A DNA stretch of 64,000 bases from Naegleria gruberi (lineage: Eukaryota). This document shows positions 1 through 63,697 of this stretch, piece after piece. The stretch lies in assembly GCA_000004985.1 (NCBI GenBank), contig GG738887.1. One strand, 5' to 3'. Position numbers and translations under genes: made by a program. Under the pieces are notes generated by a model that worked only from the letters and a program-made list of their open reading frames with translations, made no database searches and was not told the origin of the DNA. Position 1 is the stretch's first letter. The number at the start of each line of letters is the position of its first letter.

Positions 1-645
1 TTTTTCAAAACTGAATTTTTCAATATCCAAAAAGAAAAGAATATTTCAGTTTATATAATCAAAGTTAAAGGACATGAAGATAAGGAAAATATAATAGTAG
101 ATCGCCTTGCGAAAGATGGAACTGAAAGAGATAAGATCTTTGATATCAAATCCTTACTAACCAACCAATATTTACTTATGAAAAACGATATTGTGATCTT
201 TGATTGCAAAAGAATGACTGTAAATCGCCAACTTAAGGAGATGCACGAAGCAATTGATAGTAATCCCAACTTTATTCCAAACCAAAGCTGGTCATCAATT
301 AATGTAGCCTACCTCAAGTCACGACTGTCACCTAAAACCAAATATCAAATTTGGCGAAACGCTTCAAATTCTCATATCAAATATACACAGAAGAAAGATG
401 AATTGAATCCAACCTGCTCAGATTGTAATTGTCCCTCAAATTTAGAACATTACATACATGAATGCCCCAGACTAGACAATCAAAGAAGATATTGTCAAAA
501 TAGATTAACAGAAATACTTGATAGACCTGAGTGTTCACTCTCCCCTATCCAAGAAATTCCTTTCCAATACTCATATGTGCTATATTTCCATCACTCAGGC
601 ATAACCTTTTTTGAGAATGAATATATAGATAGATCCCCACCATAA
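1..645 (+). mobile_element. 3' fragment of a non-LTR retrotransposon ORF2 (end of RNase H domain plus C-terminal CCHC zinc knuckle), truncated at the window edge
   Basis: Frame 1 is open from nt 1 to the TAA at 643-645. The translation contains 'KVKGHEDKENIIVDRLAKDG', which matches the RNase H C-terminal motif (HxG..GNE.AD.LAK). Downstream is 'CSDCNCPSNLEHYIHECP', a C-x2-C-x8-H-x3-C knuckle typical of non-LTR ORF2 C-termini. Confidence 0.55.
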
Positions 646-784
646 CGTCTTAAAGAAATGGCCAGAGATCCAAGCTGCTATTTCCAAATTTATTGGAAGA
701 GCCTTCCTTATTTATCAAATTGATTCAAAACCTATTTACAAACGAAGTGAGAAATAGAATCTGAATAGATTCGCCAAAATGCAT

Positions 785-1514
785 TAAAAGATTTTTTTTG
801 ATTAATATTTTTAGCGGTTTGTTTTGATGAAGTTTTTTTGTTTTCGAAAACAAGAAAATTTCCATCAAATAATGGAATGATATTTTCTTTTAAAAAATGG
901 AAGTCAATTGATACAGACAATCTGCAGTTTTCAACATTGAAAGTGCCTTAGATTCATTTCCATTCTAATTCTAGGCAAATTTGGCTTCAAAGTTAAATAA
1001 ATATTTCAACTTTTGAAATCTTCTCCAACACCAGAGCTTACTTGTTTCGAATAATGAATTTTCCATCAGAATTCTGAAAAGATTAGAACGAACGAAATCA
1101 AACAGCGATTCTCTTTGAGTTCTTTCTCCTCAGTTCCAACTAATCAATGTCTAACAATAATCGAACACTGCTTCAATCCTTAATTCCACCTAATTTAAAA
1201 ATTTCGTCATCCACCAAACCAATTATCGATATCAACACCCTCAAATTAATTTCCACATACAACCGATTCAAACTCAACTCAAAATCCGATTATTATTTTC
1301 AATTTGAATGAGAAGAAGAACTGCCGAGTATTACCATCACCCTCATCTAATTTTTCTTCCGTTTTCCCGCCAAACTTTCACTGAAGATGAAGACTGATAA
1401 AAAGCCAAGCAGTAAAATTTTGTTTTATGAACAACCCAAATTCGTCCAAGCTATCAACGTCTCATCCCAACCCAAAAAGAATTAGAAAAAAATCGCATCA
1501 ACATTTCATATACT
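785..1514. repeat. Left arm of a long inverted repeat; the homology continues into the N gap
   Basis: 785-1514 aligns by eye, with few mismatches and small indels, to the reverse complement of 62990-63697. For example, 1427-1514 'atgaacaacccaaattcgtcc...catttcatatact' matches the RC of ~62993-63087. Confidence 0.8.
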
Positions 1515-4500
1515 NNNNNNNNNNNNNNNNNNNNNNNNNNNNNNNNNNNNNNNNNNNNNNNNNNNNNNNNNNNNNNNNNNNNNNNNNNNNNNNNNNNNNN
1601 NNNNNNNNNNNNNNNNNNNNNNNNNNNNNNNNNNNNNNNNNNNNNNNNNNNNNNNNNNNNNNNNNNNNNNNNNNNNNNNNNNNNNNNNNNNNNNNNNNNN
1701 NNNNNNNNNNNNNNNNNNNNNNNNNNNNNNNNNNNNNNNNNNNNNNNNNNNNNNNNNNNNNNNNNNNNNNNNNNNNNNNNNNNNNNNNNNNNNNNNNNNN
1801 NNNNNNNNNNNNNNNNNNNNNNNNNNNNNNNNNNNNNNNNNNNNNNNNNNNNNNNNNNNNNNNNNNNNNNNNNNNNNNNNNNNNNNNNNNNNNNNNNNNN
1901 NNNNNNNNNNNNNNNNNNNNNNNNNNNNNNNNNNNNNNNNNNNNNNNNNNNNNNNNNNNNNNNNNNNNNNNNNNNNNNNNNNNNNNNNNNNNNNNNNNNN
2001 NNNNNNNNNNNNNNNNNNNNNNNNNNNNNNNNNNNNNNNNNNNNNNNNNNNNNNNNNNNNNNNNNNNNNNNNNNNNNNNNNNNNNNNNNNNNNNNNNNNN
2101 NNNNNNNNNNNNNNNNNNNNNNNNNNNNNNNNNNNNNNNNNNNNNNNNNNNNNNNNNNNNNNNNNNNNNNNNNNNNNNNNNNNNNNNNNNNNNNNNNNNN
2201 NNNNNNNNNNNNNNNNNNNNNNNNNNNNNNNNNNNNNNNNNNNNNNNNNNNNNNNNNNNNNNNNNNNNNNNNNNNNNNNNNNNNNNNNNNNNNNNNNNNN
2301 NNNNNNNNNNNNNNNNNNNNNNNNNNNNNNNNNNNNNNNNNNNNNNNNNNNNNNNNNNNNNNNNNNNNNNNNNNNNNNNNNNNNNNNNNNNNNNNNNNNN
2401 NNNNNNNNNNNNNNNNNNNNNNNNNNNNNNNNNNNNNNNNNNNNNNNNNNNNNNNNNNNNNNNNNNNNNNNNNNNNNNNNNNNNNNNNNNNNNNNNNNNN
2501 NNNNNNNNNNNNNNNNNNNNNNNNNNNNNNNNNNNNNNNNNNNNNNNNNNNNNNNNNNNNNNNNNNNNNNNNNNNNNNNNNNNNNNNNNNNNNNNNNNNN
2601 NNNNNNNNNNNNNNNNNNNNNNNNNNNNNNNNNNNNNNNNNNNNNNNNNNNNNNNNNNNNNNNNNNNNNNNNNNNNNNNNNNNNNNNNNNNNNNNNNNNN
2701 NNNNNNNNNNNNNNNNNNNNNNNNNNNNNNNNNNNNNNNNNNNNNNNNNNNNNNNNNNNNNNNNNNNNNNNNNNNNNNNNNNNNNNNNNNNNNNNNNNNN
2801 NNNNNNNNNNNNNNNNNNNNNNNNNNNNNNNNNNNNNNNNNNNNNNNNNNNNNNNNNNNNNNNNNNNNNNNNNNNNNNNNNNNNNNNNNNNNNNNNNNNN
2901 NNNNNNNNNNNNNNNNNNNNNNNNNNNNNNNNNNNNNNNNNNNNNNNNNNNNNNNNNNNNNNNNNNNNNNNNNNNNNNNNNNNNNNNNNNNNNNNNNNNN
3001 NNNNNNNNNNNNNNNNNNNNNNNNNNNNNNNNNNNNNNNNNNNNNNNNNNNNNNNNNNNNNNNNNNNNNNNNNNNNNNNNNNNNNNNNNNNNNNNNNNNN
3101 NNNNNNNNNNNNNNNNNNNNNNNNNNNNNNNNNNNNNNNNNNNNNNNNNNNNNNNNNNNNNNNNNNNNNNNNNNNNNNNNNNNNNNNNNNNNNNNNNNNN
3201 NNNNNNNNNNNNNNNNNNNNNNNNNNNNNNNNNNNNNNNNNNNNNNNNNNNNNNNNNNNNNNNNNNNNNNNNNNNNNNNNNNNNNNNNNNNNNNNNNNNN
3301 NNNNNNNNNNNNNNNNNNNNNNNNNNNNNNNNNNNNNNNNNNNNNNNNNNNNNNNNNNNNNNNNNNNNNNNNNNNNNNNNNNNNNNNNNNNNNNNNNNNN
3401 NNNNNNNNNNNNNNNNNNNNNNNNNNNNNNNNNNNNNNNNNNNNNNNNNNNNNNNNNNNNNNNNNNNNNNNNNNNNNNNNNNNNNNNNNNNNNNNNNNNN
3501 NNNNNNNNNNNNNNNNNNNNNNNNNNNNNNNNNNNNNNNNNNNNNNNNNNNNNNNNNNNNNNNNNNNNNNNNNNNNNNNNNNNNNNNNNNNNNNNNNNNN
3601 NNNNNNNNNNNNNNNNNNNNNNNNNNNNNNNNNNNNNNNNNNNNNNNNNNNNNNNNNNNNNNNNNNNNNNNNNNNNNNNNNNNNNNNNNNNNNNNNNNNN
3701 NNNNNNNNNNNNNNNNNNNNNNNNNNNNNNNNNNNNNNNNNNNNNNNNNNNNNNNNNNNNNNNNNNNNNNNNNNNNNNNNNNNNNNNNNNNNNNNNNNNN
3801 NNNNNNNNNNNNNNNNNNNNNNNNNNNNNNNNNNNNNNNNNNNNNNNNNNNNNNNNNNNNNNNNNNNNNNNNNNNNNNNNNNNNNNNNNNNNNNNNNNNN
3901 NNNNNNNNNNNNNNNNNNNNNNNNNNNNNNNNNNNNNNNNNNNNNNNNNNNNNNNNNNNNNNNNNNNNNNNNNNNNNNNNNNNNNNNNNNNNNNNNNNNN
4001 NNNNNNNNNNNNNNNNNNNNNNNNNNNNNNNNNNNNNNNNNNNNNNNNNNNNNNNNNNNNNNNNNNNNNNNNNNNNNNNNNNNNNNNNNNNNNNNNNNNN
4101 NNNNNNNNNNNNNNNNNNNNNNNNNNNNNNNNNNNNNNNNNNNNNNNNNNNNNNNNNNNNNNNNNNNNNNNNNNNNNNNNNNNNNNNNNNNNNNNNNNNN
4201 NNNNNNNNNNNNNNNNNNNNNNNNNNNNNNNNNNNNNNNNNNNNNNNNNNNNNNNNNNNNNNNNNNNNNNNNNNNNNNNNNNNNNNNNNNNNNNNNNNNN
4301 NNNNNNNNNNNNNNNNNNNNNNNNNNNNNNNNNNNNNNNNNNNNNNNNNNNNNNNNNNNNNNNNNNNNNNNNNNNNNNNNNNNNNNNNNNNNNNNNNNNN
4401 NNNNNNNNNNNNNNNNNNNNNNNNNNNNNNNNNNNNNNNNNNNNNNNNNNNNNNNNNNNNNNNNNNNNNNNNNNNNNNNNNNNNNNNNNNNNNNNNNNNN

Positions 4501-7500
4501 NNNNNNNNNNNNNNNNNNNNNNNNNNNNNNNNNNNNNNNNNNNNNNNNNNNNNNNNNNNNNNNNNNNNNNNNNNNNNNNNNNNNNNNNNNNNNNNNNNNN
4601 NNNNNNNNNNNNNNNNNNNNNNNNNNNNNNNNNNNNNNNNNNNNNNNNNNNNNNNNNNNNNNNNNNNNNNNNNNNNNNNNNNNNNNNNNNNNNNNNNNNN
4701 NNNNNNNNNNNNNNNNNNNNNNNNNNNNNNNNNNNNNNNNNNNNNNNNNNNNNNNNNNNNNNNNNNNNNNNNNNNNNNNNNNNNNNNNNNNNNNNNNNNN
4801 NNNNNNNNNNNNNNNNNNNNNNNNNNNNNNNNNNNNNNNNNNNNNNNNNNNNNNNNNNNNNNNNNNNNNNNNNNNNNNNNNNNNNNNNNNNNNNNNNNNN
4901 NNNNNNNNNNNNNNNNNNNNNNNNNNNNNNNNNNNNNNNNNNNNNNNNNNNNNNNNNNNNNNNNNNNNNNNNNNNNNNNNNNNNNNNNNNNNNNNNNNNN
5001 NNNNNNNNNNNNNNNNNNNNNNNNNNNNNNNNNNNNNNNNNNNNNNNNNNNNNNNNNNNNNNNNNNNNNNNNNNNNNNNNNNNNNNNNNNNNNNNNNNNN
5101 NNNNNNNNNNNNNNNNNNNNNNNNNNNNNNNNNNNNNNNNNNNNNNNNNNNNNNNNNNNNNNNNNNNNNNNNNNNNNNNNNNNNNNNNNNNNNNNNNNNN
5201 NNNNNNNNNNNNNNNNNNNNNNNNNNNNNNNNNNNNNNNNNNNNNNNNNNNNNNNNNNNNNNNNNNNNNNNNNNNNNNNNNNNNNNNNNNNNNNNNNNNN
5301 NNNNNNNNNNNNNNNNNNNNNNNNNNNNNNNNNNNNNNNNNNNNNNNNNNNNNNNNNNNNNNNNNNNNNNNNNNNNNNNNNNNNNNNNNNNNNNNNNNNN
5401 NNNNNNNNNNNNNNNNNNNNNNNNNNNNNNNNNNNNNNNNNNNNNNNNNNNNNNNNNNNNNNNNNNNNNNNNNNNNNNNNNNNNNNNNNNNNNNNNNNNN
5501 NNNNNNNNNNNNNNNNNNNNNNNNNNNNNNNNNNNNNNNNNNNNNNNNNNNNNNNNNNNNNNNNNNNNNNNNNNNNNNNNNNNNNNNNNNNNNNNNNNNN
5601 NNNNNNNNNNNNNNNNNNNNNNNNNNNNNNNNNNNNNNNNNNNNNNNNNNNNNNNNNNNNNNNNNNNNNNNNNNNNNNNNNNNNNNNNNNNNNNNNNNNN
5701 NNNNNNNNNNNNNNNNNNNNNNNNNNNNNNNNNNNNNNNNNNNNNNNNNNNNNNNNNNNNNNNNNNNNNNNNNNNNNNNNNNNNNNNNNNNNNNNNNNNN
5801 NNNNNNNNNNNNNNNNNNNNNNNNNNNNNNNNNNNNNNNNNNNNNNNNNNNNNNNNNNNNNNNNNNNNNNNNNNNNNNNNNNNNNNNNNNNNNNNNNNNN
5901 NNNNNNNNNNNNNNNNNNNNNNNNNNNNNNNNNNNNNNNNNNNNNNNNNNNNNNNNNNNNNNNNNNNNNNNNNNNNNNNNNNNNNNNNNNNNNNNNNNNN
6001 NNNNNNNNNNNNNNNNNNNNNNNNNNNNNNNNNNNNNNNNNNNNNNNNNNNNNNNNNNNNNNNNNNNNNNNNNNNNNNNNNNNNNNNNNNNNNNNNNNNN
6101 NNNNNNNNNNNNNNNNNNNNNNNNNNNNNNNNNNNNNNNNNNNNNNNNNNNNNNNNNNNNNNNNNNNNNNNNNNNNNNNNNNNNNNNNNNNNNNNNNNNN
6201 NNNNNNNNNNNNNNNNNNNNNNNNNNNNNNNNNNNNNNNNNNNNNNNNNNNNNNNNNNNNNNNNNNNNNNNNNNNNNNNNNNNNNNNNNNNNNNNNNNNN
6301 NNNNNNNNNNNNNNNNNNNNNNNNNNNNNNNNNNNNNNNNNNNNNNNNNNNNNNNNNNNNNNNNNNNNNNNNNNNNNNNNNNNNNNNNNNNNNNNNNNNN
6401 NNNNNNNNNNNNNNNNNNNNNNNNNNNNNNNNNNNNNNNNNNNNNNNNNNNNNNNNNNNNNNNNNNNNNNNNNNNNNNNNNNNNNNNNNNNNNNNNNNNN
6501 NNNNNNNNNNNNNNNNNNNNNNNNNNNNNNNNNNNNNNNNNNNNNNNNNNNNNNNNNNNNNNNNNNNNNNNNNNNNNNNNNNNNNNNNNNNNNNNNNNNN
6601 NNNNNNNNNNNNNNNNNNNNNNNNNNNNNNNNNNNNNNNNNNNNNNNNNNNNNNNNNNNNNNNNNNNNNNNNNNNNNNNNNNNNNNNNNNNNNNNNNNNN
6701 NNNNNNNNNNNNNNNNNNNNNNNNNNNNNNNNNNNNNNNNNNNNNNNNNNNNNNNNNNNNNNNNNNNNNNNNNNNNNNNNNNNNNNNNNNNNNNNNNNNN
6801 NNNNNNNNNNNNNNNNNNNNNNNNNNNNNNNNNNNNNNNNNNNNNNNNNNNNNNNNNNNNNNNNNNNNNNNNNNNNNNNNNNNNNNNNNNNNNNNNNNNN
6901 NNNNNNNNNNNNNNNNNNNNNNNNNNNNNNNNNNNNNNNNNNNNNNNNNNNNNNNNNNNNNNNNNNNNNNNNNNNNNNNNNNNNNNNNNNNNNNNNNNNN
7001 NNNNNNNNNNNNNNNNNNNNNNNNNNNNNNNNNNNNNNNNNNNNNNNNNNNNNNNNNNNNNNNNNNNNNNNNNNNNNNNNNNNNNNNNNNNNNNNNNNNN
7101 NNNNNNNNNNNNNNNNNNNNNNNNNNNNNNNNNNNNNNNNNNNNNNNNNNNNNNNNNNNNNNNNNNNNNNNNNNNNNNNNNNNNNNNNNNNNNNNNNNNN
7201 NNNNNNNNNNNNNNNNNNNNNNNNNNNNNNNNNNNNNNNNNNNNNNNNNNNNNNNNNNNNNNNNNNNNNNNNNNNNNNNNNNNNNNNNNNNNNNNNNNNN
7301 NNNNNNNNNNNNNNNNNNNNNNNNNNNNNNNNNNNNNNNNNNNNNNNNNNNNNNNNNNNNNNNNNNNNNNNNNNNNNNNNNNNNNNNNNNNNNNNNNNNN
7401 NNNNNNNNNNNNNNNNNNNNNNNNNNNNNNNNNNNNNNNNNNNNNNNNNNNNNNNNNNNNNNNNNNNNNNNNNNNNNNNNNNNNNNNNNNNNNNNNNNNN

Positions 7501-10500
7501 NNNNNNNNNNNNNNNNNNNNNNNNNNNNNNNNNNNNNNNNNNNNNNNNNNNNNNNNNNNNNNNNNNNNNNNNNNNNNNNNNNNNNNNNNNNNNNNNNNNN
7601 NNNNNNNNNNNNNNNNNNNNNNNNNNNNNNNNNNNNNNNNNNNNNNNNNNNNNNNNNNNNNNNNNNNNNNNNNNNNNNNNNNNNNNNNNNNNNNNNNNNN
7701 NNNNNNNNNNNNNNNNNNNNNNNNNNNNNNNNNNNNNNNNNNNNNNNNNNNNNNNNNNNNNNNNNNNNNNNNNNNNNNNNNNNNNNNNNNNNNNNNNNNN
7801 NNNNNNNNNNNNNNNNNNNNNNNNNNNNNNNNNNNNNNNNNNNNNNNNNNNNNNNNNNNNNNNNNNNNNNNNNNNNNNNNNNNNNNNNNNNNNNNNNNNN
7901 NNNNNNNNNNNNNNNNNNNNNNNNNNNNNNNNNNNNNNNNNNNNNNNNNNNNNNNNNNNNNNNNNNNNNNNNNNNNNNNNNNNNNNNNNNNNNNNNNNNN
8001 NNNNNNNNNNNNNNNNNNNNNNNNNNNNNNNNNNNNNNNNNNNNNNNNNNNNNNNNNNNNNNNNNNNNNNNNNNNNNNNNNNNNNNNNNNNNNNNNNNNN
8101 NNNNNNNNNNNNNNNNNNNNNNNNNNNNNNNNNNNNNNNNNNNNNNNNNNNNNNNNNNNNNNNNNNNNNNNNNNNNNNNNNNNNNNNNNNNNNNNNNNNN
8201 NNNNNNNNNNNNNNNNNNNNNNNNNNNNNNNNNNNNNNNNNNNNNNNNNNNNNNNNNNNNNNNNNNNNNNNNNNNNNNNNNNNNNNNNNNNNNNNNNNNN
8301 NNNNNNNNNNNNNNNNNNNNNNNNNNNNNNNNNNNNNNNNNNNNNNNNNNNNNNNNNNNNNNNNNNNNNNNNNNNNNNNNNNNNNNNNNNNNNNNNNNNN
8401 NNNNNNNNNNNNNNNNNNNNNNNNNNNNNNNNNNNNNNNNNNNNNNNNNNNNNNNNNNNNNNNNNNNNNNNNNNNNNNNNNNNNNNNNNNNNNNNNNNNN
8501 NNNNNNNNNNNNNNNNNNNNNNNNNNNNNNNNNNNNNNNNNNNNNNNNNNNNNNNNNNNNNNNNNNNNNNNNNNNNNNNNNNNNNNNNNNNNNNNNNNNN
8601 NNNNNNNNNNNNNNNNNNNNNNNNNNNNNNNNNNNNNNNNNNNNNNNNNNNNNNNNNNNNNNNNNNNNNNNNNNNNNNNNNNNNNNNNNNNNNNNNNNNN
8701 NNNNNNNNNNNNNNNNNNNNNNNNNNNNNNNNNNNNNNNNNNNNNNNNNNNNNNNNNNNNNNNNNNNNNNNNNNNNNNNNNNNNNNNNNNNNNNNNNNNN
8801 NNNNNNNNNNNNNNNNNNNNNNNNNNNNNNNNNNNNNNNNNNNNNNNNNNNNNNNNNNNNNNNNNNNNNNNNNNNNNNNNNNNNNNNNNNNNNNNNNNNN
8901 NNNNNNNNNNNNNNNNNNNNNNNNNNNNNNNNNNNNNNNNNNNNNNNNNNNNNNNNNNNNNNNNNNNNNNNNNNNNNNNNNNNNNNNNNNNNNNNNNNNN
9001 NNNNNNNNNNNNNNNNNNNNNNNNNNNNNNNNNNNNNNNNNNNNNNNNNNNNNNNNNNNNNNNNNNNNNNNNNNNNNNNNNNNNNNNNNNNNNNNNNNNN
9101 NNNNNNNNNNNNNNNNNNNNNNNNNNNNNNNNNNNNNNNNNNNNNNNNNNNNNNNNNNNNNNNNNNNNNNNNNNNNNNNNNNNNNNNNNNNNNNNNNNNN
9201 NNNNNNNNNNNNNNNNNNNNNNNNNNNNNNNNNNNNNNNNNNNNNNNNNNNNNNNNNNNNNNNNNNNNNNNNNNNNNNNNNNNNNNNNNNNNNNNNNNNN
9301 NNNNNNNNNNNNNNNNNNNNNNNNNNNNNNNNNNNNNNNNNNNNNNNNNNNNNNNNNNNNNNNNNNNNNNNNNNNNNNNNNNNNNNNNNNNNNNNNNNNN
9401 NNNNNNNNNNNNNNNNNNNNNNNNNNNNNNNNNNNNNNNNNNNNNNNNNNNNNNNNNNNNNNNNNNNNNNNNNNNNNNNNNNNNNNNNNNNNNNNNNNNN
9501 NNNNNNNNNNNNNNNNNNNNNNNNNNNNNNNNNNNNNNNNNNNNNNNNNNNNNNNNNNNNNNNNNNNNNNNNNNNNNNNNNNNNNNNNNNNNNNNNNNNN
9601 NNNNNNNNNNNNNNNNNNNNNNNNNNNNNNNNNNNNNNNNNNNNNNNNNNNNNNNNNNNNNNNNNNNNNNNNNNNNNNNNNNNNNNNNNNNNNNNNNNNN
9701 NNNNNNNNNNNNNNNNNNNNNNNNNNNNNNNNNNNNNNNNNNNNNNNNNNNNNNNNNNNNNNNNNNNNNNNNNNNNNNNNNNNNNNNNNNNNNNNNNNNN
9801 NNNNNNNNNNNNNNNNNNNNNNNNNNNNNNNNNNNNNNNNNNNNNNNNNNNNNNNNNNNNNNNNNNNNNNNNNNNNNNNNNNNNNNNNNNNNNNNNNNNN
9901 NNNNNNNNNNNNNNNNNNNNNNNNNNNNNNNNNNNNNNNNNNNNNNNNNNNNNNNNNNNNNNNNNNNNNNNNNNNNNNNNNNNNNNNNNNNNNNNNNNNN
10001 NNNNNNNNNNNNNNNNNNNNNNNNNNNNNNNNNNNNNNNNNNNNNNNNNNNNNNNNNNNNNNNNNNNNNNNNNNNNNNNNNNNNNNNNNNNNNNNNNNNN
10101 NNNNNNNNNNNNNNNNNNNNNNNNNNNNNNNNNNNNNNNNNNNNNNNNNNNNNNNNNNNNNNNNNNNNNNNNNNNNNNNNNNNNNNNNNNNNNNNNNNNN
10201 NNNNNNNNNNNNNNNNNNNNNNNNNNNNNNNNNNNNNNNNNNNNNNNNNNNNNNNNNNNNNNNNNNNNNNNNNNNNNNNNNNNNNNNNNNNNNNNNNNNN
10301 NNNNNNNNNNNNNNNNNNNNNNNNNNNNNNNNNNNNNNNNNNNNNNNNNNNNNNNNNNNNNNNNNNNNNNNNNNNNNNNNNNNNNNNNNNNNNNNNNNNN
10401 NNNNNNNNNNNNNNNNNNNNNNNNNNNNNNNNNNNNNNNNNNNNNNNNNNNNNNNNNNNNNNNNNNNNNNNNNNNNNNNNNNNNNNNNNNNNNNNNNNNN

Positions 10501-10780
10501 NNNNNNNNNNNNNNNNNNNNNNNNNNNNNNNNNNNNNNNNNNNNNNNNNNNNNNNNNNNNNNNNNNNNNNNNNNNNNNNNNNNNNNNNNNNNNNNNNNNN
10601 NNNNNNNNNNNNNNNNNNNNNNNNNNNNNNNNNNNNNNNNNNNNNNNNNNNNNNNNNNNNNNNNNNNNNNNNNNNNNNNNNNNNNNNNNNNNNNNNNNNN
10701 NNNNNNNNNNNNNNNNNNNNNNNNNNNNNNNNNNNNNNNNNNNNNNNNNNNNNNNNNNNNNNNNNNNNNNNNNNNNNNNN
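1515..10780. other. Assembly gap (9,266 consecutive N)
   Basis: Uninterrupted n run. The track ORFs 1427..10864(+) and 1498..10821(-) are artefacts of translating N. Confidence 0.99.
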
Positions 10781-11159: not shown

Positions 11160-11579
11160 TTATAAATTATTTAAATTATCTTTAATTGAATGAATGTATT
11201 GTTCTAAATCTTTAACATCTTCAAAATGAGTATAATTTCTATCAATGATAAATAATTTATTTTCCAATTCCTTAATACTTGATTTTAATTGTTCAAAATC
11301 TTTTTTAACTTGATTACTTGTTAAATATATATTTGTATTATTATTTAATGAATTATTATTATTAACAGATGATGAATGTATACTTTGTCTATCATAAAAT
11401 CTATTTATATTATTAAATGATGATGATAGTGAGGAAGAGGAGGATGATTGTTGTTGATTTAATATTTGAGAGAGTGATGTTTTATGGTAGGATGGTTGTT
11501 GTGAATGTGAATGAGATGATAAAGAAGAGGCACTACTCAGTACTGATAGATTATTATTAAGGTATGATGATGATTTCAT
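11160..11579 (-). CDS. Hypothetical Ser/Asn-rich protein with a C-terminal coiled-coil segment
   Basis: 139-aa ORF with a low-complexity N-terminal half. The C-terminal 'KKDFEQLKSSIKELENKLFIIDRNYTHFEDVKDLEQYIHSIKDNL' has a heptad-like pattern. No family recognised. Confidence 0.3.
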   Translation of the reverse strand: MKSSSYLNNNLSVLSSASSLSSHSHSQQPSYHKTSLSQILNQQQSSSSSSLSSSFNNINRFYDRQSIHSSSVNNNNSLNNNTNIYLTSNQVKKDFEQLKSSIKELENKLFIIDRNYTHFEDVKDLEQYIHSIKDNLNNL

Positions 11580-11699: not shown

Positions 11700-12764
11700 T
11701 TAAAAAACAAATAAATGAATAAAATAAATAATTGGGAATGAAAATAATAAACCATCAATTCTATCTAAAACACCACCATGTGCACCAAAGAAAGAACCAG
11801 AATCTTTAACTTTTGCAATTCTTTTTAAATAAGATTCAATTAAATCACCAATTATACCTAAAATACCTAAAATAATACCATAAATAATATAATAATATAA
11901 TGAATTACAATTATAAGTACAATTATTTGAACTTGCAATTGTAATATTTGATTGTTCAAAAAATAAATGTAAATCAAAAATAAAATAATTAATAAAATAT
12001 AAAATAATAGATAATAAAACACTTCCAAATATAGCACCAATACCACCTTCAATAGTTTTATTAGGTGATAAATATTGATGTAATTTATATTTACCAAATG
12101 ATTTACCAAATGCTAATGCAAATGCATCAGATGACCAATTATCAAATAAAGTAATTACTAATAATAAACGATGTGTTTTTACCATAATTAGTGCTCCTGA
12201 AAATCCTAATCCAATATATAATACTGAAAATGTTCTCAAAAATATTTTAATAAATGTTCTTGTATGTTCTTCATCACTCTTTCCAAATGATGAAAATAAA
12301 ATCATATCAATTATAAAAATACTAAAATAAATAAATATAACATAACTAAATAATAATTCTAAATTATTTGGATAAAAATATGAAATAAATGTTAATACAA
12401 GTGTTAATATTAAATCAATATAAAAAGATGAATTGGATAGAATTTTTAAATCATGAGGTGTTGATATTTCTTTAATAGATGAAAGTTTAATTGTTGTTGT
12501 TGTTGTTGTATTGTTATTATTATTATTAGATGTATTAGTAGTAGTATCATTGTTATTATTATTGTTATTGATATTATTATTTGAGGATAAAGGTAAAATT
12601 AAATCAACAATTCTATTAGTAATACCATGTAATTCAAAAATACCAACAATGGATAACAATGTTGTAATTAAAATTAATAATGAATGATATTTAATACAAA
12701 ATATTACTATTGGTATAGCTACTCCTGCTACTATAAATCTTTGAATTAAATTCATTAAATTCAT
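11700..12764 (-). CDS. Phosphatidate cytidylyltransferase (CDP-diacylglycerol synthase / CTP-transferase-1 family) multi-pass membrane protein
   Basis: C-terminal signature 'ESYLKRIAKVKDSGSFFGAHGGVLDRIDGLLF' matches the CDS-family motif S-x-[LIVMF]-K-R-x4-K-D-x-[GSA]-x2-[LIF]-[PG]-x-H-G-G-[LIVMF]-x-D-R-[LIVMFT]-D. There is also 'NKTIEGGIGAIFGS' (KTxEG motif), several hydrophobic helices and an internal poly-N/T insert. Confidence 0.6.
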   Translation of the reverse strand: MNLMNLIQRFIVAGVAIPIVIFCIKYHSLLILITTLLSIVGIFELHGITNRIVDLILPLSSNNNINNNNNNNDTTTNTSNNNNNNTTTTTTIKLSSIKEISTPHDLKILSNSSFYIDLILTLVLTFISYFYPNNLELLFSYVIFIYFSIFIIDMILFSSFGKSDEEHTRTFIKIFLRTFSVLYIGLGFSGALIMVKTHRLLLVITLFDNWSSDAFALAFGKSFGKYKLHQYLSPNKTIEGGIGAIFGSVLLSIILYFINYFIFDLHLFFEQSNITIASSNNCTYNCNSLYYYIIYGIILGILGIIGDLIESYLKRIAKVKDSGSFFGAHGGVLDRIDGLLFSFPIIYFIHLFVF

Positions 12765-13210
12765 CTTTGAAAATTGTTATTATTGTTGTACAAGTGATGA
12801 TAAAGTAATCAGATGATGAATAATTTAATGATGATTTTTTTTTTGATTTTAATTGATATGTGTGTGATCCGAAAGTTAAAAATCATCAACAGACAAATTG
12901 TTTTTAAATTAATTGGCGATGCGACAATGTGAACTTTTTAATACATGATAACAATTCAAGAGTGTTCCAATTTCATTTTAATAGGTGTTTTTTGTAATAT
13001 TGGGAATGTAACTTGGAAATTGGTTGTTTAATTTTAAAACATTTATGCTAAGTCAGAATTTTTTAAATTCATTTACAATACAATATATTTAAAGTTAAAT
13101 AATAATTTAAAAAAAACTGTAGATGGAGTGCGTGTAGATTCTCAAACAAGAATATATTCAGTAATTTTACATTTATATCTTTTCAAAAGAATCAATTATT
13201 ATTAAAAAAA

Positions 13211-13777
13211 ATGTCATCACCAACATCACTAAATAACAAATTAAAAGTCCTATCACTCTATCGTCAAATATTAAAATTAGGAAATGAATGGGAAAAACAC
13301 TGTACCAAACAAATGACAAGTTTTCATAAGAATATCTATGAAAGACAATTTATTACATTTGAACAAGATGCACAAGATTATCATAAAGGTGATGAAGAAA
13401 TTGAACGTGAAAAGGAATATATTATTGATCAGGCAAAATCACAATTCCGATCCTTTAAAAATTTAACCAATCCAGAAGAAATTAAATCTAAAATTGAATT
13501 AGCTGAAAAAAGACTTTTATTAACTCTTCATTATGGAATTCCATTTGAAAGACCTGAACATGTAAATATTTATGATAACTTTTGGAAAGGTCAAATAGAT
13601 CCTACTTCAACAGATTATTCAGAATTTAATAGTAGTAGTACTACTACCACTACCACTACATTCAATGAATCAAATATTCATTCAATGAAAGGTTTAAATC
13701 CAAATTATGATGAATTAGAACCTAAATTTCCAACTCATAAATCTCTAGATTTAGATGAAGATGAAAATTGGAAATAA
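13211..13777 (+). CDS. LYR-motif (Complex1_LYR-like) family protein
   Basis: N-terminus 'LKVLSLYRQILKLGNEW' carries an L-x-x-LYR-x-x-LK motif. It is small and basic with an acidic/Thr-rich tail. Confidence 0.45.
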   Translation: MSSPTSLNNKLKVLSLYRQILKLGNEWEKHCTKQMTSFHKNIYERQFITFEQDAQDYHKGDEEIEREKEYIIDQAKSQFRSFKNLTNPEEIKSKIELAEKRLLLTLHYGIPFERPEHVNIYDNFWKGQIDPTSTDYSEFNSSSTTTTTTTFNESNIHSMKGLNPNYDELEPKFPTHKSLDLDEDENWK

Positions 13778-13909
13778 TTACATTCATTACCACCATTAAT
13801 ACCACTCTCACCAATACTATCACCACCTGAAATTGTTTCTCAATCTCCCACTTGTTTAATAATAGAATTTATATATATTATACTAATACTCCTACCACTA
13901 CCACTACTA

Positions 13910-15220
13910 CTATTCATGTACTGATGCATTCACTCCATTATTTCCTAAATTATTTTGATGTAGATGATTATTACCACCCTTAATTATAGAATTTACAATA
14001 ATTTCAACATCTTGTATTCTATTTTGAATAGCTTGTAAATGTTTATACTCTTCTGAAATATTCTTTTCAAGTCTATCTGTAATAAATTTAGGTTGTTCAG
14101 TTGGTTTAAATTTTCTAGTTTCCATACAACGTTGATGTAAATTTGTAATACTCATTATAACTTGTGAATATAATTGTGATAATTTTCTATTGGCTAAATC
14201 TTGATGTGAATAGGCTGATTCTAAATTATAGGATTTAGTTTTCAATTTTTCTAATAATAATCTCTTTTGTTGATTTTCAACATTTAATTCATATAATCTA
14301 TTTTGTGCTTGTTTTTGATAGGTTTTAAATTCTGTTTGAGTTTGCTTAATTAATTGTTTGTAATTTTCTTTTTGATTTTCTAAATCAATTATTGATTCAT
14401 GTAATATTTCATATCTTTTTAATATTTTATCCATATCATCTTCAAATGTATTATTATCATGTCTAGCTACTATATTCAGATAATTTTGAAATAAATGAAT
14501 TTTTTTCAATTCTTCTTCCTTTTTCTTTTTTTCATCTGTTAATTGAGTTATATTTTTAGTAAGGCTAACAATTTGTTTCATCTTTTCTTCATTTTGATTT
14601 TGTTCTTCTTTTACTTTTTTATAATACTTGTCAATTTTAGATTCATTAATTTGATTAAATTGTTTCATATCTTTTTGACTATTATCTAATTCTTGTCTTC
14701 TTCTTGTTAATTCTAATTCTTGATCTTTCCATTTTGTATCATTAGATTCATATTCTTTCCTTTTTTGATCAAGCATTTGTTGAACTTTTTGTAGTTCAGC
14801 TTTTTTACTTTCCAATGCTGCATCAACATTATTAACTTTTTGTGGTTTTTTACCATTGGAAACAACACTCGGAAATTGTATTTGAGGTCCTCTCGTAATA
14901 AAGAATGAATCACCACCTTCATTAATGGCAGATATATCATTCAGATTAATAGCAGCAGAAGAAACAGCAGCTGATGATGAATTCATTAAATTAAGTTGAG
15001 ATGCATCTTTACGTTTCCTTATTATTGATCCTTTTCTTCCTTTACTATTAGCTCTATGTGATGATTTTGGATTAGTACTATCCTCTTCATCTTCTTCATT
15101 CTGATTATATTTAGTGATGGGTCCATCATGAGACACTCGGGGTGATGGAAGTGGATTTGATGTTGGCAAAAACACTGAACCTGCTCTAAAGTTACTAGTC
15201 ATATTATTGTTGTTATCCAA
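13910..15220 (-). CDS. Hypothetical coiled-coil protein (436 aa)
   Basis: Long uninterrupted ORF. The central ~250 aa are K/E/Q-rich with heptad periodicity ('LQKVQQMLDQKRKEYESNDTKWKDQELELTRRRQELD...'). The N-terminus is Ser/Pro-rich. Confidence 0.45.
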   Translation of the reverse strand: MDNNNNMTSNFRAGSVFLPTSNPLPSPRVSHDGPITKYNQNEEDEEDSTNPKSSHRANSKGRKGSIIRKRKDASQLNLMNSSSAAVSSAAINLNDISAINEGGDSFFITRGPQIQFPSVVSNGKKPQKVNNVDAALESKKAELQKVQQMLDQKRKEYESNDTKWKDQELELTRRRQELDNSQKDMKQFNQINESKIDKYYKKVKEEQNQNEEKMKQIVSLTKNITQLTDEKKKKEEELKKIHLFQNYLNIVARHDNNTFEDDMDKILKRYEILHESIIDLENQKENYKQLIKQTQTEFKTYQKQAQNRLYELNVENQQKRLLLEKLKTKSYNLESAYSHQDLANRKLSQLYSQVIMSITNLHQRCMETRKFKPTEQPKFITDRLEKNISEEYKHLQAIQNRIQDVEIIVNSIIKGGNNHLHQNNLGNNGVNASVHE

Positions 15221-15685
15221 AAAAGATCAGTCCTGATTAATTGATTAATGATGATGATAATTATATTGATGATGTTTCTTATTCTTAAAGTTCACTACGA
15301 TAGCATAAAAAAAGGTTCCTTGTTGTTGTTGTGTTGTTGAGGTGTAAGGAAGTGTAGGGTAATTTTTTTTTAAATAAGATATGCTCAAACGTTTAACTAC
15401 AAATAATTTGGCGGGGGAAAATCGGTTAGAAATCCATCACCACTTAATATCCATGATAATTATCATCAGCCAACTCTGAGAGTTTATCTTAATAACAACA
15501 CAACTATATACCCTTGCTATTCAACAATCCATTTAATGAAATTCATTTGATTGACTTGGTGTGTTTGTTATAATTGTTAAGACTAGCTAAATTTACCTCA
15601 ATGATTACATTATTCACTGTAAACAATTTGCGTACATTTAATAACTTTATAAGGAAGATTCCTAATTTGTAAACTAGTTAAAAAA

Positions 15686-16396
15686 ATGAGCAAATATACA
15701 TTACTTGTTCTTTTATTCATATTGTTATCTCCTCCTCATCAATTTATTCATCATCATTTATTTAATTATCATTCCAACAATTCTAATAATAATAATAATA
15801 TAAATAGTAATAATAATAATAATAATAATAATATAAATAACATGAATAATATAAATAATAATTTAATAGAATGTAAAGAAATTAATTTATCATTATCACC
15901 ATGTTTAATGAATGAATATAATAAATATGATTATTTAAAAATAGAAAATAAAAGTGAAATATTAAATTATATAAATAATAATGAATATATAAATAATAAT
16001 AATTTAATTGAATGTATTTCAATAGTTGAACATCCATTATATTTAAAAGAATGTGAAATAATATATTTAAATAATATAATATATGATACATGTCATTTAT
16101 CATCAACATTTAAATATTTAAAATGTTATAATAAACAATGTGTACCATGTATTAATAATAGTGTTTATATTAATAATGGTTTATATTGTTATAATTTTAA
16201 TTATATTTCAAATTATATTGGTTGGAATAATTTAGATAAATTATTATTACTTTGGATTATTTTTATTTCTTTATTATTATTTTATTTATTTACTTATTTA
16301 GTAATTAATTATTTTAAATATAATAATAGACATTTTAAAAGACAATATCAAATGTATATATATGATTTTATTATAAATAAAATTAATAAATATTAA
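15686..16396 (+). CDS. Hypothetical Asn-rich, Cys-containing protein with N-terminal signal-like and C-terminal TM segments
   Basis: 236-aa ORF. The hydrophobic start 'MSKYTLLVLLFILL' suggests a signal peptide. There is a long poly-N tract, spaced Cys residues, and a C-terminal TM 'LLLWIIFISLLLFYLFTYLVI'. Strong low-complexity bias lowers confidence. Confidence 0.3.
   Translation: MSKYTLLVLLFILLSPPHQFIHHHLFNYHSNNSNNNNNINSNNNNNNNNINNMNNINNNLIECKEINLSLSPCLMNEYNKYDYLKIENKSEILNYINNNEYINNNNLIECISIVEHPLYLKECEIIYLNNIIYDTCHLSSTFKYLKCYNKQCVPCINNSVYINNGLYCYNFNYISNYIGWNNLDKLLLLWIIFISLLLFYLFTYLVINYFKYNNRHFKRQYQMYIYDFIINKINKY
15783..15838. repeat. Imperfect (AAT)n microsatellite encoding a poly-Asn tract
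   Basis: Directly visible 'aataataataataat...' run inside the CDS above. Confidence 0.8.
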
Positions 16397-16527
16397 ATCT
16401 TTTTTAAACCTTTTTCTTCCATAATTACTTTCTAATAATTGTTATCATTTCAATCCAATATATAATAATAATAATAAAAATAATAATAATATTATATAAG
16501 GATGATAATTAATAATTTTAAATAATA

Positions 16528-16878: not shown

Positions 16879-17397
16879 TTTTTTTAATTAATTTATATTT
16901 ATTATTTGAAGAGATGATTAATTTGATTGAAGTAAAAAGTTTGAAGAAATTAGATGAATATTTTAGGCTTTCACGTTCGAGTTTTAAATATCACGTTACT
17001 GGTTTTATGTTGAATGAAGAGCAAAGGCTTGGTAAATCAATTTGTTCAAACTCAATAAGGCTTGTTGTCCTCCCCATAGGCTAAGCAGCATAGGAGTTTT
17101 GAGTGAAGTTTGGAATTGATTGATGAACACCAAATCTACCCTCAATACTGAAAACACCAAATTGAGAATTATTCAACAACCTCCTCATACGTGCCACACA
17201 CATCTTAATTGGTCCGAAAATGGTTGTTTTCATTCAGGCTGGTGTGATGATCACGCTCAACAAGAAGCAACTGAAAGAATTTATAATTGTACAAAATGAT
17301 GGTACTTTCCTCATTAGAGAAAATTTTATCAATACACAACTTGTAAAAAAACCCCTAAAATCCATCCACACATTTTTGTACAGAATCTATCCACAAG

Positions 17398-22898: not shown

Positions 22899-23303
22899 AA
22901 AGATTGGAATATTGATGAAAATTTATTTTGATCAATTAATATTATAATATGAATGGATGATTAAATATATATTCTAAAATATCATGTTAATAATAATTTC
23001 ATCATCCTATACCTAGGTATTACTCGTAGAAAAAAATGGTTAGGATCAATTTATACTGAATATATACAAAATCAAGCCTGTAATTTAAATGAAATTGCAC
23101 AACCCGGGGAAGAATTTACTTCCGCCATTTCTGTTTTTCTTTCCAAGAAGCACAATACAGATACTGAGAAATCAACAAATCATCAGTTTCCAGTGTAATA
23201 TAGGTAACATTCATTGCTTTCATTGTGTTTGTGCAAAGCAGGGTCAAGAAATAACCAATGTCTCAAAATTCGAAATTTGCCTTAATAATTTTCTGAGCAT
23301 AAG

Positions 23304-23392
23304 GGGTGGTTAGCTCAGCGGTAGAGCACCGGATTGCAAAGATATTTGCAGCAGACATCCGATGGTCACGTGTTCGATCCACGTACCACCCT
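23304..23392 (+). tRNA. tRNA-Cys (anticodon GCA) with a 17-nt intron 3' of anticodon position 37
   Basis: Acceptor stem gggtggt/accaccc. D-arm gctc-agcggta-gagc. Anticodon stem ccgga/tccga (one C.A mismatch). Anticodon loop 'ttGCAa[agatatttgcagcagac]a', with the intron containing 'tgcag', complementary to the anticodon region. T-arm acgtg-ttcgatc-cacgt. Discriminator t, no encoded CCA, and a 'cttcctttta' T-run just downstream. Confidence 0.75.
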
Positions 23393-23723
23393 TCCTTTTA
23401 GATATTGCACCTAACGGTCATTATTGATGCTTAGAGCTCGCTTATTGTGACACCAAAATAAATCCTACCTTTATAACCAAGCTTTGCCTAATTGTACACT
23501 AACTTTAATGAAATCCTCCCTAGAACTTTTTTTCACCCGAGATTGTTAACTGCCTGGATCTTCAGGCGAGTCAAGTGGGCGGACGTATCCAATAAGGATG
23601 CACCATCTCAGAAAGTGGACATTTAAATTCCAAGATTTTAACAATCATAATTAAAACGTTGGAAAAATCAACGATTATCAAGCAATCCAATTCGAGTGAA
23701 AAAAAAAGTGCAACAATAATATT

Positions 23724-39797: not shown

Positions 39798-39922
39798 GGC
39801 TTCTTGTTTCGTTTCGTTGTAGTGGTAATGATGGTGGTGATGACATTTTTTATTTGTTCTATTAATAGAAAAAGTTCATCATTTTATTTTAAAGTCTTTG
39901 ATCGGAAGAATTAGAAAAAAAA

Positions 39923-62989: not shown

Positions 62990-63697
62990 TGAAAGTAATA
63001 TGAAATGTTGATGCGATTTTTTTCTAATTCTTTTTGGGTTGGGATGAGACGTTGATAGCTTGGACGAATTTGGGTTGTTCATAAAACAAAATTTTACTGC
63101 TTGGCTTTTTATCAGTCTTCATCTCTTTCAGTGAAAGTTTGGCGGGAAAACGGAAGAAAAATTAGATGAGGGTGATGGTAATACTCGGGCAGTTCTTCTT
63201 CTCATTCAAAGTGATAATAATAATCGGATTTTGAGTTGAGTTTGGATCGGTTGTATGTGGAAATTAATTTGAGGGTGTTGATATCGATAATTGGTTTGGT
63301 GACGAAATTTTTAAATTAGGTGGAATTAAGGATTGAAGCAGTGTTCGATTATTGTTAGACATTGATTAGTTGGAACTGAGGAGAAAGAACTCAAAGAGAA
63401 TCGCTGTTTGATATCATTCGTACTAATCTTTTCAGAATTCTGATGGAAAATTCATTATTCGAAACAAGTAAGCTCCCCATATTGGAGTATATTTCAAAAG
63501 TTGAAATATTTGAAGCCAAATTCTAGAATGAAAATGAATCTAAGGCACTTTCAATGTTAAAACTTCAGATTCTGTATCAATTGACTTCCATTTTTTAAAA
63601 GAAAATATCATTCCATTATTTGATGGAAATTTTCTTGTTTTCGAAAACAAAAAAACTTCACCAAAACAAACCGCTAAAAATATTAATCAAAAAAAAT
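62990..63697. repeat. Right arm of the long inverted repeat (RC of 785-1514+), ending exactly at the ATG of the next gene
   Basis: See feature 785..1514. The homology breaks at 'caaaaaaaa|TGCCAG', the A-run preceding the ATG at 63696. Confidence 0.8.

What the first reader, a model, noticed from the sequence alone, without database searches (positions are those of the whole stretch)
1..10780. Non-LTR retrotransposon ORF2 tail next to a 9.3-kb unresolved gap
The RNase H motif and CCHC knuckle indicate a LINE-like element reading left to right. Its 3' UTR should lie in 646-~800, and the inverted repeat begins right there. Gaps in amoebozoan assemblies typically sit in transposon clusters, and dictyostelid non-LTR elements (TRE family) target tRNA genes. 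The gap may therefore hide more elements or a tRNA.
Basis: partly seen in the sequence, partly recalled or inferred. Interest (0 to 1): 0.5.

Follow-up and report, generated by a model that had tools for sequence, protein, structure and literature searches.

The report
Naegleria LINE tail beside assembly gap
The left end of the window is the broken 3' end of an ordinary jumping gene (a LINE retrotransposon) of the amoeboflagellate Naegleria gruberi, not of a slime mould. It sits at a run of eight T's next to duplicated host DNA in which the assembly gap begins.

Summary
Frame 1 of 1..642 is open (214 codons, stop 643-645), and the N run is exactly 1515..10780 (9,266 N).

The translation is the C-terminus of a non-LTR ORF2. 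It is 99% identical to N. gruberi protein EFC36780. It is 33-54% identical to Naegleria and environmental proteins built APE endonuclease, then RT, then RNase H, then a tail with an invariant CX2CX7HX4C.

The host is Naegleria gruberi (Discoba), not an amoebozoan. The element is not a TRE, has no poly(A), and shows no tRNA link.

This copy is frameshifted at 631-640. The family stop is TAG 755-757, the 3' UTR is 758-791, and T8 follows at 792-799.

In N. fowleri relatives, seven copies diverge right after a T7-9 run. Two relatives carry 15-16-bp target-site duplications that begin with that T run. These LINEs therefore integrate at oligo(dT) tracts.

Sequence 791..1514 is not part of the LINE. 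It has an inverted paralog at 63697..62994 whose homology starts exactly at the T8, so it looks like an unoccupied target site. The gap opens where the two copies become identical. Its content cannot be determined.

The finding is ordinary overall. The T-tract targeting is a modestly interesting detail.

The parts
1..642 (+). ORF2 C-terminal tail in frame 1 (214 codons). The end of the RNase H domain is at nt 34-123. A conserved IWRN block follows, and the CX2CX7HX4C knuckle is at nt 415-465.
631..645 (+). Frameshift zone (631-640) and the resulting premature stop TAA at 643-645.
   Evidence: tblastn with P0001, P0003, P0030, P0044, P0059 and P0072 switches from frame 1 to frame 2 here.
635..757 (+). 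Last 40 codons of the family ORF2 in frame 2 (PHHNVLKKWPEIQ...KRSEK) plus the family stop TAG at 755-757.
   Evidence: 39 of 40 residues identical to the C-terminus of P0001/P0028. The WPEIQ..G motif is conserved.
758..791 (+). 34-nt 3' UTR ending in ...AAAAGA. It contains ATTAAA. A 6-bp hairpin (stems 757-762 and 767-772) starts at the last base of the stop codon. There is no poly(A).
   Evidence: 34 of 43 nt identical and the same length as the UTR of Logan contig L002, against 51-57% identity in coding DNA. The hairpin appears in the folds but is not more stable than shuffled sequence.
792..799 (+). T8 tract: the inferred integration target and the start of the expected target-site duplication.
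   Evidence: A T7-9 run is the last shared sequence in 7 N. fowleri copies. TSDs that begin with the T run are seen in L004 and L009. The T8 is present at the paralogous empty site.
791..1514 (+). Left arm of the inverted repeat. It is host, non-LINE sequence and is cut off by the gap.
   Evidence: No LINE-related coding sequence.
1515..10780 (.). Assembly gap of 9,266 N.
62994..63697 (-). Right arm of the inverted repeat. It is the unoccupied counterpart of the LINE insertion site. Its T8 (63689-63696 on the - strand, A8 on the + strand) abuts an ATG at 63696-63698 (+).

Best explanation
Shown: bases 1-791 are the 3' end of a degenerate copy of a Naegleria gruberi non-LTR retrotransposon. Its ORF2 is built APE endonuclease, then reverse transcriptase, then RNase H, then a C-terminal domain with a CX2CX7HX4C knuckle. 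This copy has a frameshift at 631-640. The family ORF ends at 755-757, followed by a 34-nt conserved 3' UTR and no poly(A).

Shown in relatives and inferred for this copy: the family integrates by target-primed reverse transcription at oligo(dA)/(dT) tracts. The endonuclease nicks the bottom strand at the 3' end of an A7-9 run, and that oligo(dA) 3'-OH primes cDNA synthesis. Every copy therefore ends directly in front of T7-9 on its sense strand, and the T run is the start of the target-site duplication.

Inferred: priming is probably helped by pairing with a U run carried on read-through transcripts.

Shown: bases 791/792-1514 are not part of the element. They are host sequence with an inverted paralog 61.5 kb away (63697..62994). 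That paralog lacks the LINE and starts at the same T8.

Inferred: the right arm is the unoccupied version of the insertion site. The LINE entered one copy after the duplication. The 9.3-kb gap starts inside this duplicated sequence, where the two copies become identical, which is the likely reason the contig broke there.
For: Identity of the element:
- phmmer against 1.84 billion representatives gave 27 hits. The best was P0001 at 99% identity, E 2.7e-139. P0001 is N. gruberi EFC36780.
- Every hit that carries an organism name is from Naegleria gruberi, N. fowleri or N. lovaniensis.
- Pfam on the homologues finds Exo_endo_phos_2, RVT_1 and RNase_H in that order.
- A family profile hits R2 RT (E 1e-25), human L1 ORF2p (E 1e-12) and E. 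coli RNase HI (E 2e-4) in the PDB.

Host: five ORFs of the window are exact N. gruberi gene models on one 508,457-bp scaffold.

Frameshift and true stop.

3' end of the family:
- Seven N. fowleri copies are identical through TAA-TTAGA-T7-9 and unrelated afterwards.
- Logan contig L002 has the same stop, hairpin, 18-nt spacer and T8 layout and ends at the T8.
- L009 and L010 also carry an AATAAA followed by T7-8.

Target-site duplications:
- L004, a 5'-truncated copy, has ATTTTTTTTGTTTTCC at both junctions.
- L009, a full-length copy, has ATTTTTTTTGTTGTTC at both junctions.
- Against 300 random 60-nt windows, the longest shared stretch was 9 nt.

Chance: T runs of 7 or more occur only 0.55 times per kb per strand in the window.

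Empty site: homology between the two repeat arms begins at the A plus T8, which is where family comparison puts the LINE end. The repeat arms contain no LINE coding sequence.
Against: - Only one copy of the N. gruberi element could be read at the DNA level, and its 5' end lies outside the window. Its own target-site duplication is therefore unseen.
- The T-tract rule rests on N. fowleri relatives that are only 33-37% identical in the tail, plus one Logan contig.
- The left repeat arm is cut by the gap, so the length and nature of the repeat are unknown, and its copy number in the genome could not be checked.
- The ORF that starts at the empty site (63696 onward) has no homologue and no Pfam match.
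- The hairpin is not thermodynamically distinctive.
- Pairing of an RNA U run with the oligo(dA) primer is inference only.
Confidence: 0.75

Rival explanations
1. One reading: a dictyostelid TRE-type LINE that targets tRNA genes, so the gap hides a tRNA or a transposon cluster.
For: The region is AT-rich with Asn-rich ORFs that look dictyostelid. The ORF2 tail carries a zinc knuckle. Some dictyostelid non-LTR elements (NLTR-A and NLTR-B) do carry RNase H (PMC5006619).
Against: The host is N. gruberi. TREs lack RNase H and end in poly(A). No homologue that carries an organism name is from a dictyostelid. The only tRNA in the window is at 23303-23395. No tRNA lies within 3 kb of eight N. fowleri copies.
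Confidence: 0.02
2. The repeat arms are part of the LINE itself, as a long 3' UTR. The right arm would then be a severely 5'-truncated LINE copy, or an orphan 3' transduction from the left locus.
For: LINE copies are often 5'-truncated, as L004 shows. GATTAATA occurs both in the UTR of L002 and just after the T8 in the window.
Against: Seven N. fowleri copies and L002 end at the T run. The T run lies inside target-site duplications. The truncation point would have to fall by chance exactly at the element/flank boundary, out of about 5-6 kb.
Confidence: 0.05
3. The repeat arms are two copies of another dispersed repeat or non-autonomous element. The LINE is nested against it, and the gap hides the rest of a repeat cluster.
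For: The contig breaks inside the repeat. The repeat has no long ORF. Its GC content of 0.31 is higher than several nearby intergenic stretches. A related LINE in N. fowleri (L001) sits next to what looks like another retroelement (by eye only).
Against: Only two copies are visible. The right arm fills an ordinary gap between two divergent ORFs. No terminal structure, poly(A) or target-site duplication could be found. Rfam finds nothing there.
Confidence: 0.1
4. The left contig is an allelic (haplotype) or mis-scaffolded version of the right-hand locus that carries a hemizygous LINE insertion. It would not be a true second locus.
For: The contig ends just where the two sequences become 100% identical, over the last roughly 190 bp. 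That is typical of a haplotype bubble. The arms differ mostly by indels in non-coding DNA.
Against: 2.3% substitutions plus 9 indels in 730 columns is high for alleles. The contig is placed in inverted orientation 61.5 kb away. The length of the contig to the left of the window is unknown.
Confidence: 0.1

Closest known systems
Naegleria gruberi gene models EFC36780.1 / EFC36306.1 (P0001 / P0028, 'predicted protein') and related N. gruberi, N. fowleri and N. lovaniensis 'reverse transcriptase / RNase H domain-containing' proteins
   Same: 99% identity over 212 aa plus 39 of 40 aa after the frameshift. They belong to the same LINE family. Full-length relatives are about 1,180-1,210 aa and built APE-RT-RNase H-CCHC, preceded by an ORF1 of about 520-530 aa with no Pfam domain.
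   Different: The window copy is frameshifted at 631-640. P0001 and P0028 lack a detectable RT domain, so they are internally deleted copies or gene-model artefacts.
RNase H-bearing APE-type non-LTR clades (I, LOA, Tad1, Ingi/L1Tc, some R1 and L1). This rests on my knowledge of Malik et al. 1999 and on PMC5006619.
   Same: The domain order is APE, RT, then RNase H downstream of RT. Other shared features are the Cys-His knuckle, 5' truncation and variable target-site duplications.
   Different: There is no poly(A) or simple-repeat tail, and the element ends in front of a T7-9 tract. Outside Naegleria the best named hit is only E 7e-28, at 21% identity. Clade placement by RT phylogeny was not done.
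Dictyostelium TRE5/TRE3
   Same: These are APE-type LINEs with two ORFs and a zinc-finger-like C-terminus, living in a compact AT-rich protist genome.
   Different: TRE ORF2 has no RNase H. TREs end in poly(A) and sit about 50 bp upstream or about 100 bp downstream of tRNA genes (PMC5006619). None of this is seen here, and the host is a different supergroup.
Entamoeba histolytica EhLINE1/EhSINE1
   Same: [quoted passage not shown] This is the nearest precedent for a T-tract-associated 3' end.
   Different: To my knowledge, EhLINE1 uses a restriction-enzyme-like endonuclease and lacks an RNase H domain. [quoted passage not shown] No sequence relationship was tested.
Human L1
   Same: It integrates by TPRT from a homopolymer tract exposed by an APE nick, has a C-terminal Cys-rich domain, and ORF2p aligns over APE and RT.
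   Different: The polarity is opposite. From established knowledge, L1 primes from oligo(dT) on a poly(A) tail. Here the primer would be oligo(dA) and there is no poly(A). L1 also has no RNase H.

Membership tests
Non-LTR (LINE) retrotransposon, APE type | Reverse transcriptase domain in the same ORF | tested here: met
   The RT is not inside the window. Homologues of the tail (P0003, P0005, P0010, P0012) have RVT_1 at E 1e-24 to 1e-29 upstream of the matching region. The family profile hits R2 and L1 RTs in the PDB.
Non-LTR (LINE) retrotransposon, APE type | N-terminal apurinic/apyrimidinic-type endonuclease | tested here: met
   Exo_endo_phos_2 and Exo_endo_phos are found in P0003 and P0001. 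This is by homology only, outside the window.
Non-LTR (LINE) retrotransposon, APE type | TPRT hallmarks: variable 5' truncation, target-site duplications, no LTRs | tested here: met
   Shown in relatives. L004 is truncated at the equivalent of L001:5971 and has a 15-16-bp TSD. L009 is full length with a 15-16-bp TSD. This could not be tested for the window copy, whose 5' end is off-window.
Non-LTR (LINE) retrotransposon, APE type | 3' poly(A) or A-rich tail (usual but not universal) | tested here: not met
   The window has ...AAAAGA followed by T8. Seven N. fowleri copies have no A tail.
RNase H-bearing LINE clades (I / LOA / Tad1 / Ingi and others) | RNase H domain downstream of RT | tested here: met
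   RNase_H at E 1e-12 to 1e-17 downstream of RVT_1 in the homologues. The window holds the last 30 residues, including H25, N30 and D34.
RNase H-bearing LINE clades (I / LOA / Tad1 / Ingi and others) | Placement inside a named clade by RT phylogeny | not tested
   No reference clade sequences were available. Non-Naegleria hits are weak and unnamed.
Dictyostelium TRE5/TRE3 | ORF2 built APE-RT-zinc finger without RNase H | tested here: not met
   RNase H is present. The TRE definition comes from PMC5006619.
Dictyostelium TRE5/TRE3 | Integration about 50 bp upstream or about 100 bp downstream of tRNA genes | tested here: not met
   No tRNA in 1-1514. The nearest is tRNA-Cys at 23303-23395. None lies near eight related N. 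fowleri copies. The gap itself cannot be tested.
Dictyostelium TRE5/TRE3 | Dictyostelid host and poly(A) tail | tested here: not met
   The host is N. gruberi. There is no poly(A).
Dictyostelid NLTR-A / NLTR-B | Sequence relationship of RT/RNase H and integration upstream of tRNA genes | tested here: inconclusive
   No sequences of these elements were available. None of the 20 looked-up hit clusters was dictyostelid. No tRNA association was seen.
EhLINE1-like (R4-type) elements with a T-rich tail | Restriction-enzyme-like endonuclease downstream of RT | tested here: not met
   The family has an N-terminal APE, and an RNase H plus CCHC tail downstream of RT.

The most novel reading that the evidence does not exclude
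Naegleria LINEs are a distinct RNase H-bearing lineage that dispenses with poly(A). They integrate specifically at the A-tract/ATG junction in front of genes, head-to-head with the gene, priming from the oligo(dA) 3'-OH.

In all four sites where the upstream flank is visible, the target reads CA-T8-G. In three of them the T run is the A8 leader directly before a start codon on the opposite strand: the window's empty site, L001 and L009. In the fourth, L004, the T run lies 32 nt upstream of such a start codon.

In 8 of 9 sites the next downstream gene has the LINE's orientation, which points to divergent promoter regions. In the window, 17 of 57 A runs of 7 or more are followed by TG. All four observed sites being followed by TG is therefore only mildly unexpected, about 0.008 under that background.
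Probability: 0.3. Interest if true: 0.55.

Novelty: new member of a known kind. Interest (0 to 1): 0.27.

Why it matters
For the genome scan, this corrects the provenance. The window is Naegleria gruberi, so dictyostelid TRE and tRNA-targeting reasoning does not apply. It also shows that the flagged region is an ordinary, degenerate LINE remnant plus an assembly gap.

For transposon biology, the small added value is a first outline of a Naegleria-restricted LINE family. The family has a very short, conserved 3' UTR, no poly(A), and integration in front of T7-9 tracts, with one natural filled-site/empty-site pair in this window. If the preference for start-codon A-tract leaders holds genome-wide, it would be a new way for a LINE to choose sites in a compact genome. 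It would also raise the question of how the neighbouring genes stay expressed.

Tried and rejected
- The word-indexed protein search with the 214-aa tail found nothing. Only the exhaustive HMMER search did.
- N. gruberi DNA could not be fetched. Exact-protein look-ups for window genes and for P0001, P0028 and P0030 were not on record. Other N. gruberi copies, the LINE's 5' end and the repeat's copy number could therefore not be examined.
- Metagenome scans led nowhere. The protein-pattern scan gave 41 pattern matches and no relative. The 17-nt hairpin motif gave 70 exact matches, all unrelated and some of them bacterial terminator-like hairpins, with no tblastn hit.
- The hairpin after the stop codon is conserved in sequence with L002, and a different 6-bp hairpin sits at the same distance from the T run in N. 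fowleri. However, folding energies are no better than shuffles, with z between -0.9 and +0.9. I do not claim a proven structure.
- The sigma-70 promoter and terminator scan is irrelevant for a eukaryote.
- A search for homologues of the ORF at 63696 onward, meant to find a paralog beyond the LINE, found nothing, not even an annotated N. gruberi protein.
- No target-site duplication could be found for L010, because its 5' boundary is unknown.
- The idea that the very AT-rich post-gap segment is foreign or contaminant was rejected. Its ORFs are exact N. gruberi gene models on the same scaffold.
- Literature searches found no description of Naegleria LINEs in the held library.
Full report
**1. 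What is in the sequence**

The N run is exactly 1515..10780, 9,266 bases. Frame 1 is open from base 1 to 642, and a TAA follows at 643-645. The other two forward frames are full of stops.

The translation contains KVKGHEDKENIIVDRLAKDG, which is the C-terminal end of an RNase H fold. Pfam RNase_H matches aa 12-41 against profile positions 109-140 of 141, at E 0.0075. That is below the cut-off only because the window starts inside the domain. The translation also contains CSDCNCPSNLEHYIHEC, a CX2CX7HX4C motif.

**2. Identity of the ORF**

The word-indexed protein search found nothing. The exhaustive HMMER search of 1.84 billion representative proteins found 27 hits. The best were P0001 (99% identity, E 2.7e-139), P0002 (54%), P0003 (41%, 1,213 aa) and P0005 (35%).

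Pfam on these proteins gives Exo_endo_phos_2, RVT_1 and RNase_H in that order, followed by the region that matches the window. A profile of five full-length relatives hits R2 reverse transcriptases (E 1e-25), human L1 ORF2p over APE plus RT (E 1e-12) and E. coli RNase HI (E 2e-4) among solved structures.

In a 10-sequence alignment of the tail, H25, N30 and D34 (the RNase H end), K114, W118-R119-N120, H125, the four CCHC ligands, Q223 and G231 are invariant. The window therefore holds the last roughly 250 codons of a non-LTR retrotransposon ORF2.

**3. The host is not an amoebozoan**

P0001 and P0028 are Naegleria gruberi EFC36780.1 and EFC36306.1. Every homologue that carries an organism name comes from N. 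gruberi, N. fowleri or N. lovaniensis. The rest are unnamed Logan, ENA or JGI contigs.

Five ORFs elsewhere in the window, at 11160-11579, 11700-12764, 13211-13777, 54325-57195 and 57893-58330, are exact N. gruberi gene models on one 508,457-bp scaffold. N. gruberi belongs to Discoba, Heterolobosea.

Dictyostelid TREs have ORF2 built APE-RT-zinc finger, no RNase H and a poly(A) tail. They sit about 50 bp upstream or about 100 bp downstream of tRNA genes (PMC5006619). None of this applies here.

The only tRNA in the window is an intron-containing tRNA-Cys(GCA) at 23303-23395. No tRNA or other Rfam family lies within 3 kb of eight N. fowleri copies of related elements.

**4. True end of the ORF**

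P0001 continues 40 residues past the window's stop. The same peptide (PHHNVLKKWPEIQAAISKFIGRAFLIYQIDSKPIYKRSEK) is encoded at 635-754 in frame 2, followed by TAG at 755-757. Five further relatives show the same frame switch.

The window copy therefore carries a frameshift within 631-640. This is either a decayed copy or a sequencing error. The family's 3' UTR is 758-791, not 646-800.

**5. How the element ends**

Ungapped comparison with Logan contig L002 gives 34 of 43 identical bases from the stop-adjacent GAATCTGAATAGATTCG through an 18-nt A-rich spacer to a T8. L002's ORF2 tail is 41% identical to the window's. Coding DNA is only 51-57% identical. L002 ends at that T8.

For N. fowleri I fetched seven copies of one family. 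They are identical through TAA-TTAGA-T7-9 and completely unrelated afterwards. A second N. fowleri family (L009) and an ENA contig (L010) also have an AATAAA followed within 11 nt by T8 or T7. None has a poly(A) tail.

The 5'-truncated copy L004 is flanked by ATTTTTTTTGTTTTCC on both sides. The full-length L009 is flanked by ATTTTTTTTGTTGTTC. Against 300 random 60-nt windows, the longest shared stretch was 9 nt. The T run is therefore part of the target-site duplication, meaning it pre-exists in the target.

T runs of 7 or more occur only 0.55 times per kb per strand in the window, so the association cannot be chance.

The inferred mechanism is as follows. The APE nicks the bottom strand at the 3' end of an A7-9 run, and cDNA synthesis starts from that oligo(dA) 3'-OH at the exact end of the conserved UTR. 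Pairing with a U run on read-through transcripts is a plausible aid, but it is inference only. A T-rich 3' tail pairing with an A-rich bottom strand has been proposed for Entamoeba EhLINE1/SINE1 (PMC1635306), so there is precedent.

A 6-bp hairpin lies 18-19 nt before the T run in the window, in L002 and, with a different stem sequence, in N. fowleri. Its folding energy is not better than that of shuffled sequence, so it remains a lead only.

**6. The inverted repeat and the empty site**

Positions 791..1514 match 63697..62994 on the opposite strand. Of 730 columns, 682 are identical, with 16 substitutions and 9 indels. The last roughly 190 bp before the gap are 100% identical.

Homology starts at the A plus T8. 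That is the base where the family comparison places the LINE's end (AGA at 789-791, T8 at 792-799). To the left of that point, the left copy has the LINE. The right copy instead has ...TTCTGGCA, the reverse complement of an ATG-initiated ORF of at least 101 codons that runs off the window.

The right arm therefore behaves as the unoccupied version of the insertion site. It lies between that ORF and the LRR/dual-specificity-phosphatase gene at 60291-62633. The repeat has no long ORF and no LINE-related coding sequence.

The simplest history is an inverted local duplication of about 2% divergence, followed by a more recent LINE insertion at the T8 of one copy. The LINE is 99% identical to its paralogs at the protein level.

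The alternatives are listed among the rival explanations. They are that the repeat is a long LINE UTR or a 3' transduction, that it is another dispersed repeat, or that it is an allelic or mis-scaffolded copy. The first is contradicted by the evidence in section 5. The other two cannot be excluded without the rest of the genome.

**7. The gap**

The LINE does not touch the gap. About 720 bp of duplicated host sequence lie between them. The contig ends where the two repeat copies become identical, which is a sufficient reason for an assembly break.

The sequence right of the gap (10781 onward) shows no similarity to the continuation of the right arm and no LINE coding sequence. What the 9.3 kb contains cannot be determined with these tools.

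**8. Comparison and novelty**

The element is a member of an N. gruberi LINE family whose proteins are deposited only as 'predicted' or 'hypothetical' proteins. I found no description of Naegleria LINEs in the searchable literature.

In architecture it is a standard RNase H-bearing APE LINE, but its clade was not determined. The best named non-Naegleria hit is only E 7e-28 at 21% identity.

The unusual points are the absence of poly(A) and the integration in front of T7-9 tracts.

In the four sites where the upstream flank is visible, the target reads CA-T8-G. In three of these the T run is the A8 leader directly before a start codon on the other strand: the window's empty site, L001 and L009. 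In the fourth, L004, it lies 32 nt upstream of such a start codon. A-tract leaders are common in N. gruberi, where 17 of 57 A runs of 7 or more in the window are followed by TG and 14 of these open ORFs of at least 80 aa. With only four sites, this remains a hypothesis.

**9. Verdict**

The LINE interpretation is right, and the taxonomic, TRE and tRNA framing is wrong. The feature is an ordinary degenerate LINE remnant next to duplicated sequence and an assembly gap. The family's T-tract targeting and the natural filled-site/empty-site pair are a modest point of interest.

Noticed in passing
window 23303-23395 (+): tRNA-Cys(GCA) with a 17-nt intron. Rfam finds it at 54.7 bits. ARAGORN finds it only when introns are allowed, and the default ARAGORN run reported no tRNA in the window.
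   Followed up: yes
window 11700-16400 versus 46000-62400: Strong compositional heterogeneity within one N. gruberi scaffold. ORFs just right of the gap have third-position GC of 0.05-0.13, for example 0.05 at 11703-12776 and 15653-16393. ORFs at 46-62 kb have about 0.24-0.32, and there is a second dip to 0.09-0.12 at 40-45.5 kb. The low-GC3 ORFs are exact N. gruberi gene models, so this is not contamination.
   Followed up: partly
window, both strands (e.g. 13204-13211, 39915-39923, 50227-50235, 38402-38411): A runs of 7-12 directly abutting the start codon (A(n)TG) are frequent. 17 of 57 A runs of 7 or more are followed by TG, and 14 of those open ORFs of at least 80 aa. This looks like a common leader or start-context feature of N. 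gruberi genes.
   Followed up: partly
window 63696-64000 (+): An ORF of at least 101 codons (MPENLVEIINNANDASQVRMPVLMATLKS...) starts at an A8-ATG and runs off the window. It has no Pfam match and no homologue in the 5.8-billion-protein search, not even an annotated N. gruberi protein. It may be an unannotated gene or a first exon.
   Followed up: partly
window 17920-18750 (+): Imperfect tandem repeats of 47-87 nt inside the ORF at 17359-19122. They encode a Glu/Lys/Val-rich repetitive protein (the EEKKEE motif recurs).
   Followed up: no
L001 7800-8300 (N. fowleri VFQX01000016.1): About 200 bp downstream of the LINE's T8, the same strand reads by eye like the RT/RNase H part of a DIRS-like or other retroelement (...DAS..GY...INxKELLAI...). 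This would be a nested TE cluster in N. fowleri. It was not checked with any tool.
   Followed up: no
P0001 / P0028 (N. gruberi EFC36780.1, EFC36306.1): These 813-aa gene models have APE and RNase H Pfam hits but no RVT_1. The annotated paralogs of the window's LINE are either internally deleted copies or gene models that splice out the RT.
   Followed up: no
L001, L003-L009 and the window's empty site: Related LINE copies sit in divergent intergenic regions. The gene upstream of the 5' end is on the opposite strand in 4 of 4 visible cases. The next called gene downstream has the LINE's orientation in 8 of 9 cases. L009 has only a 14-nt 5' UTR and an 11-nt 3' UTR.
   Followed up: partly
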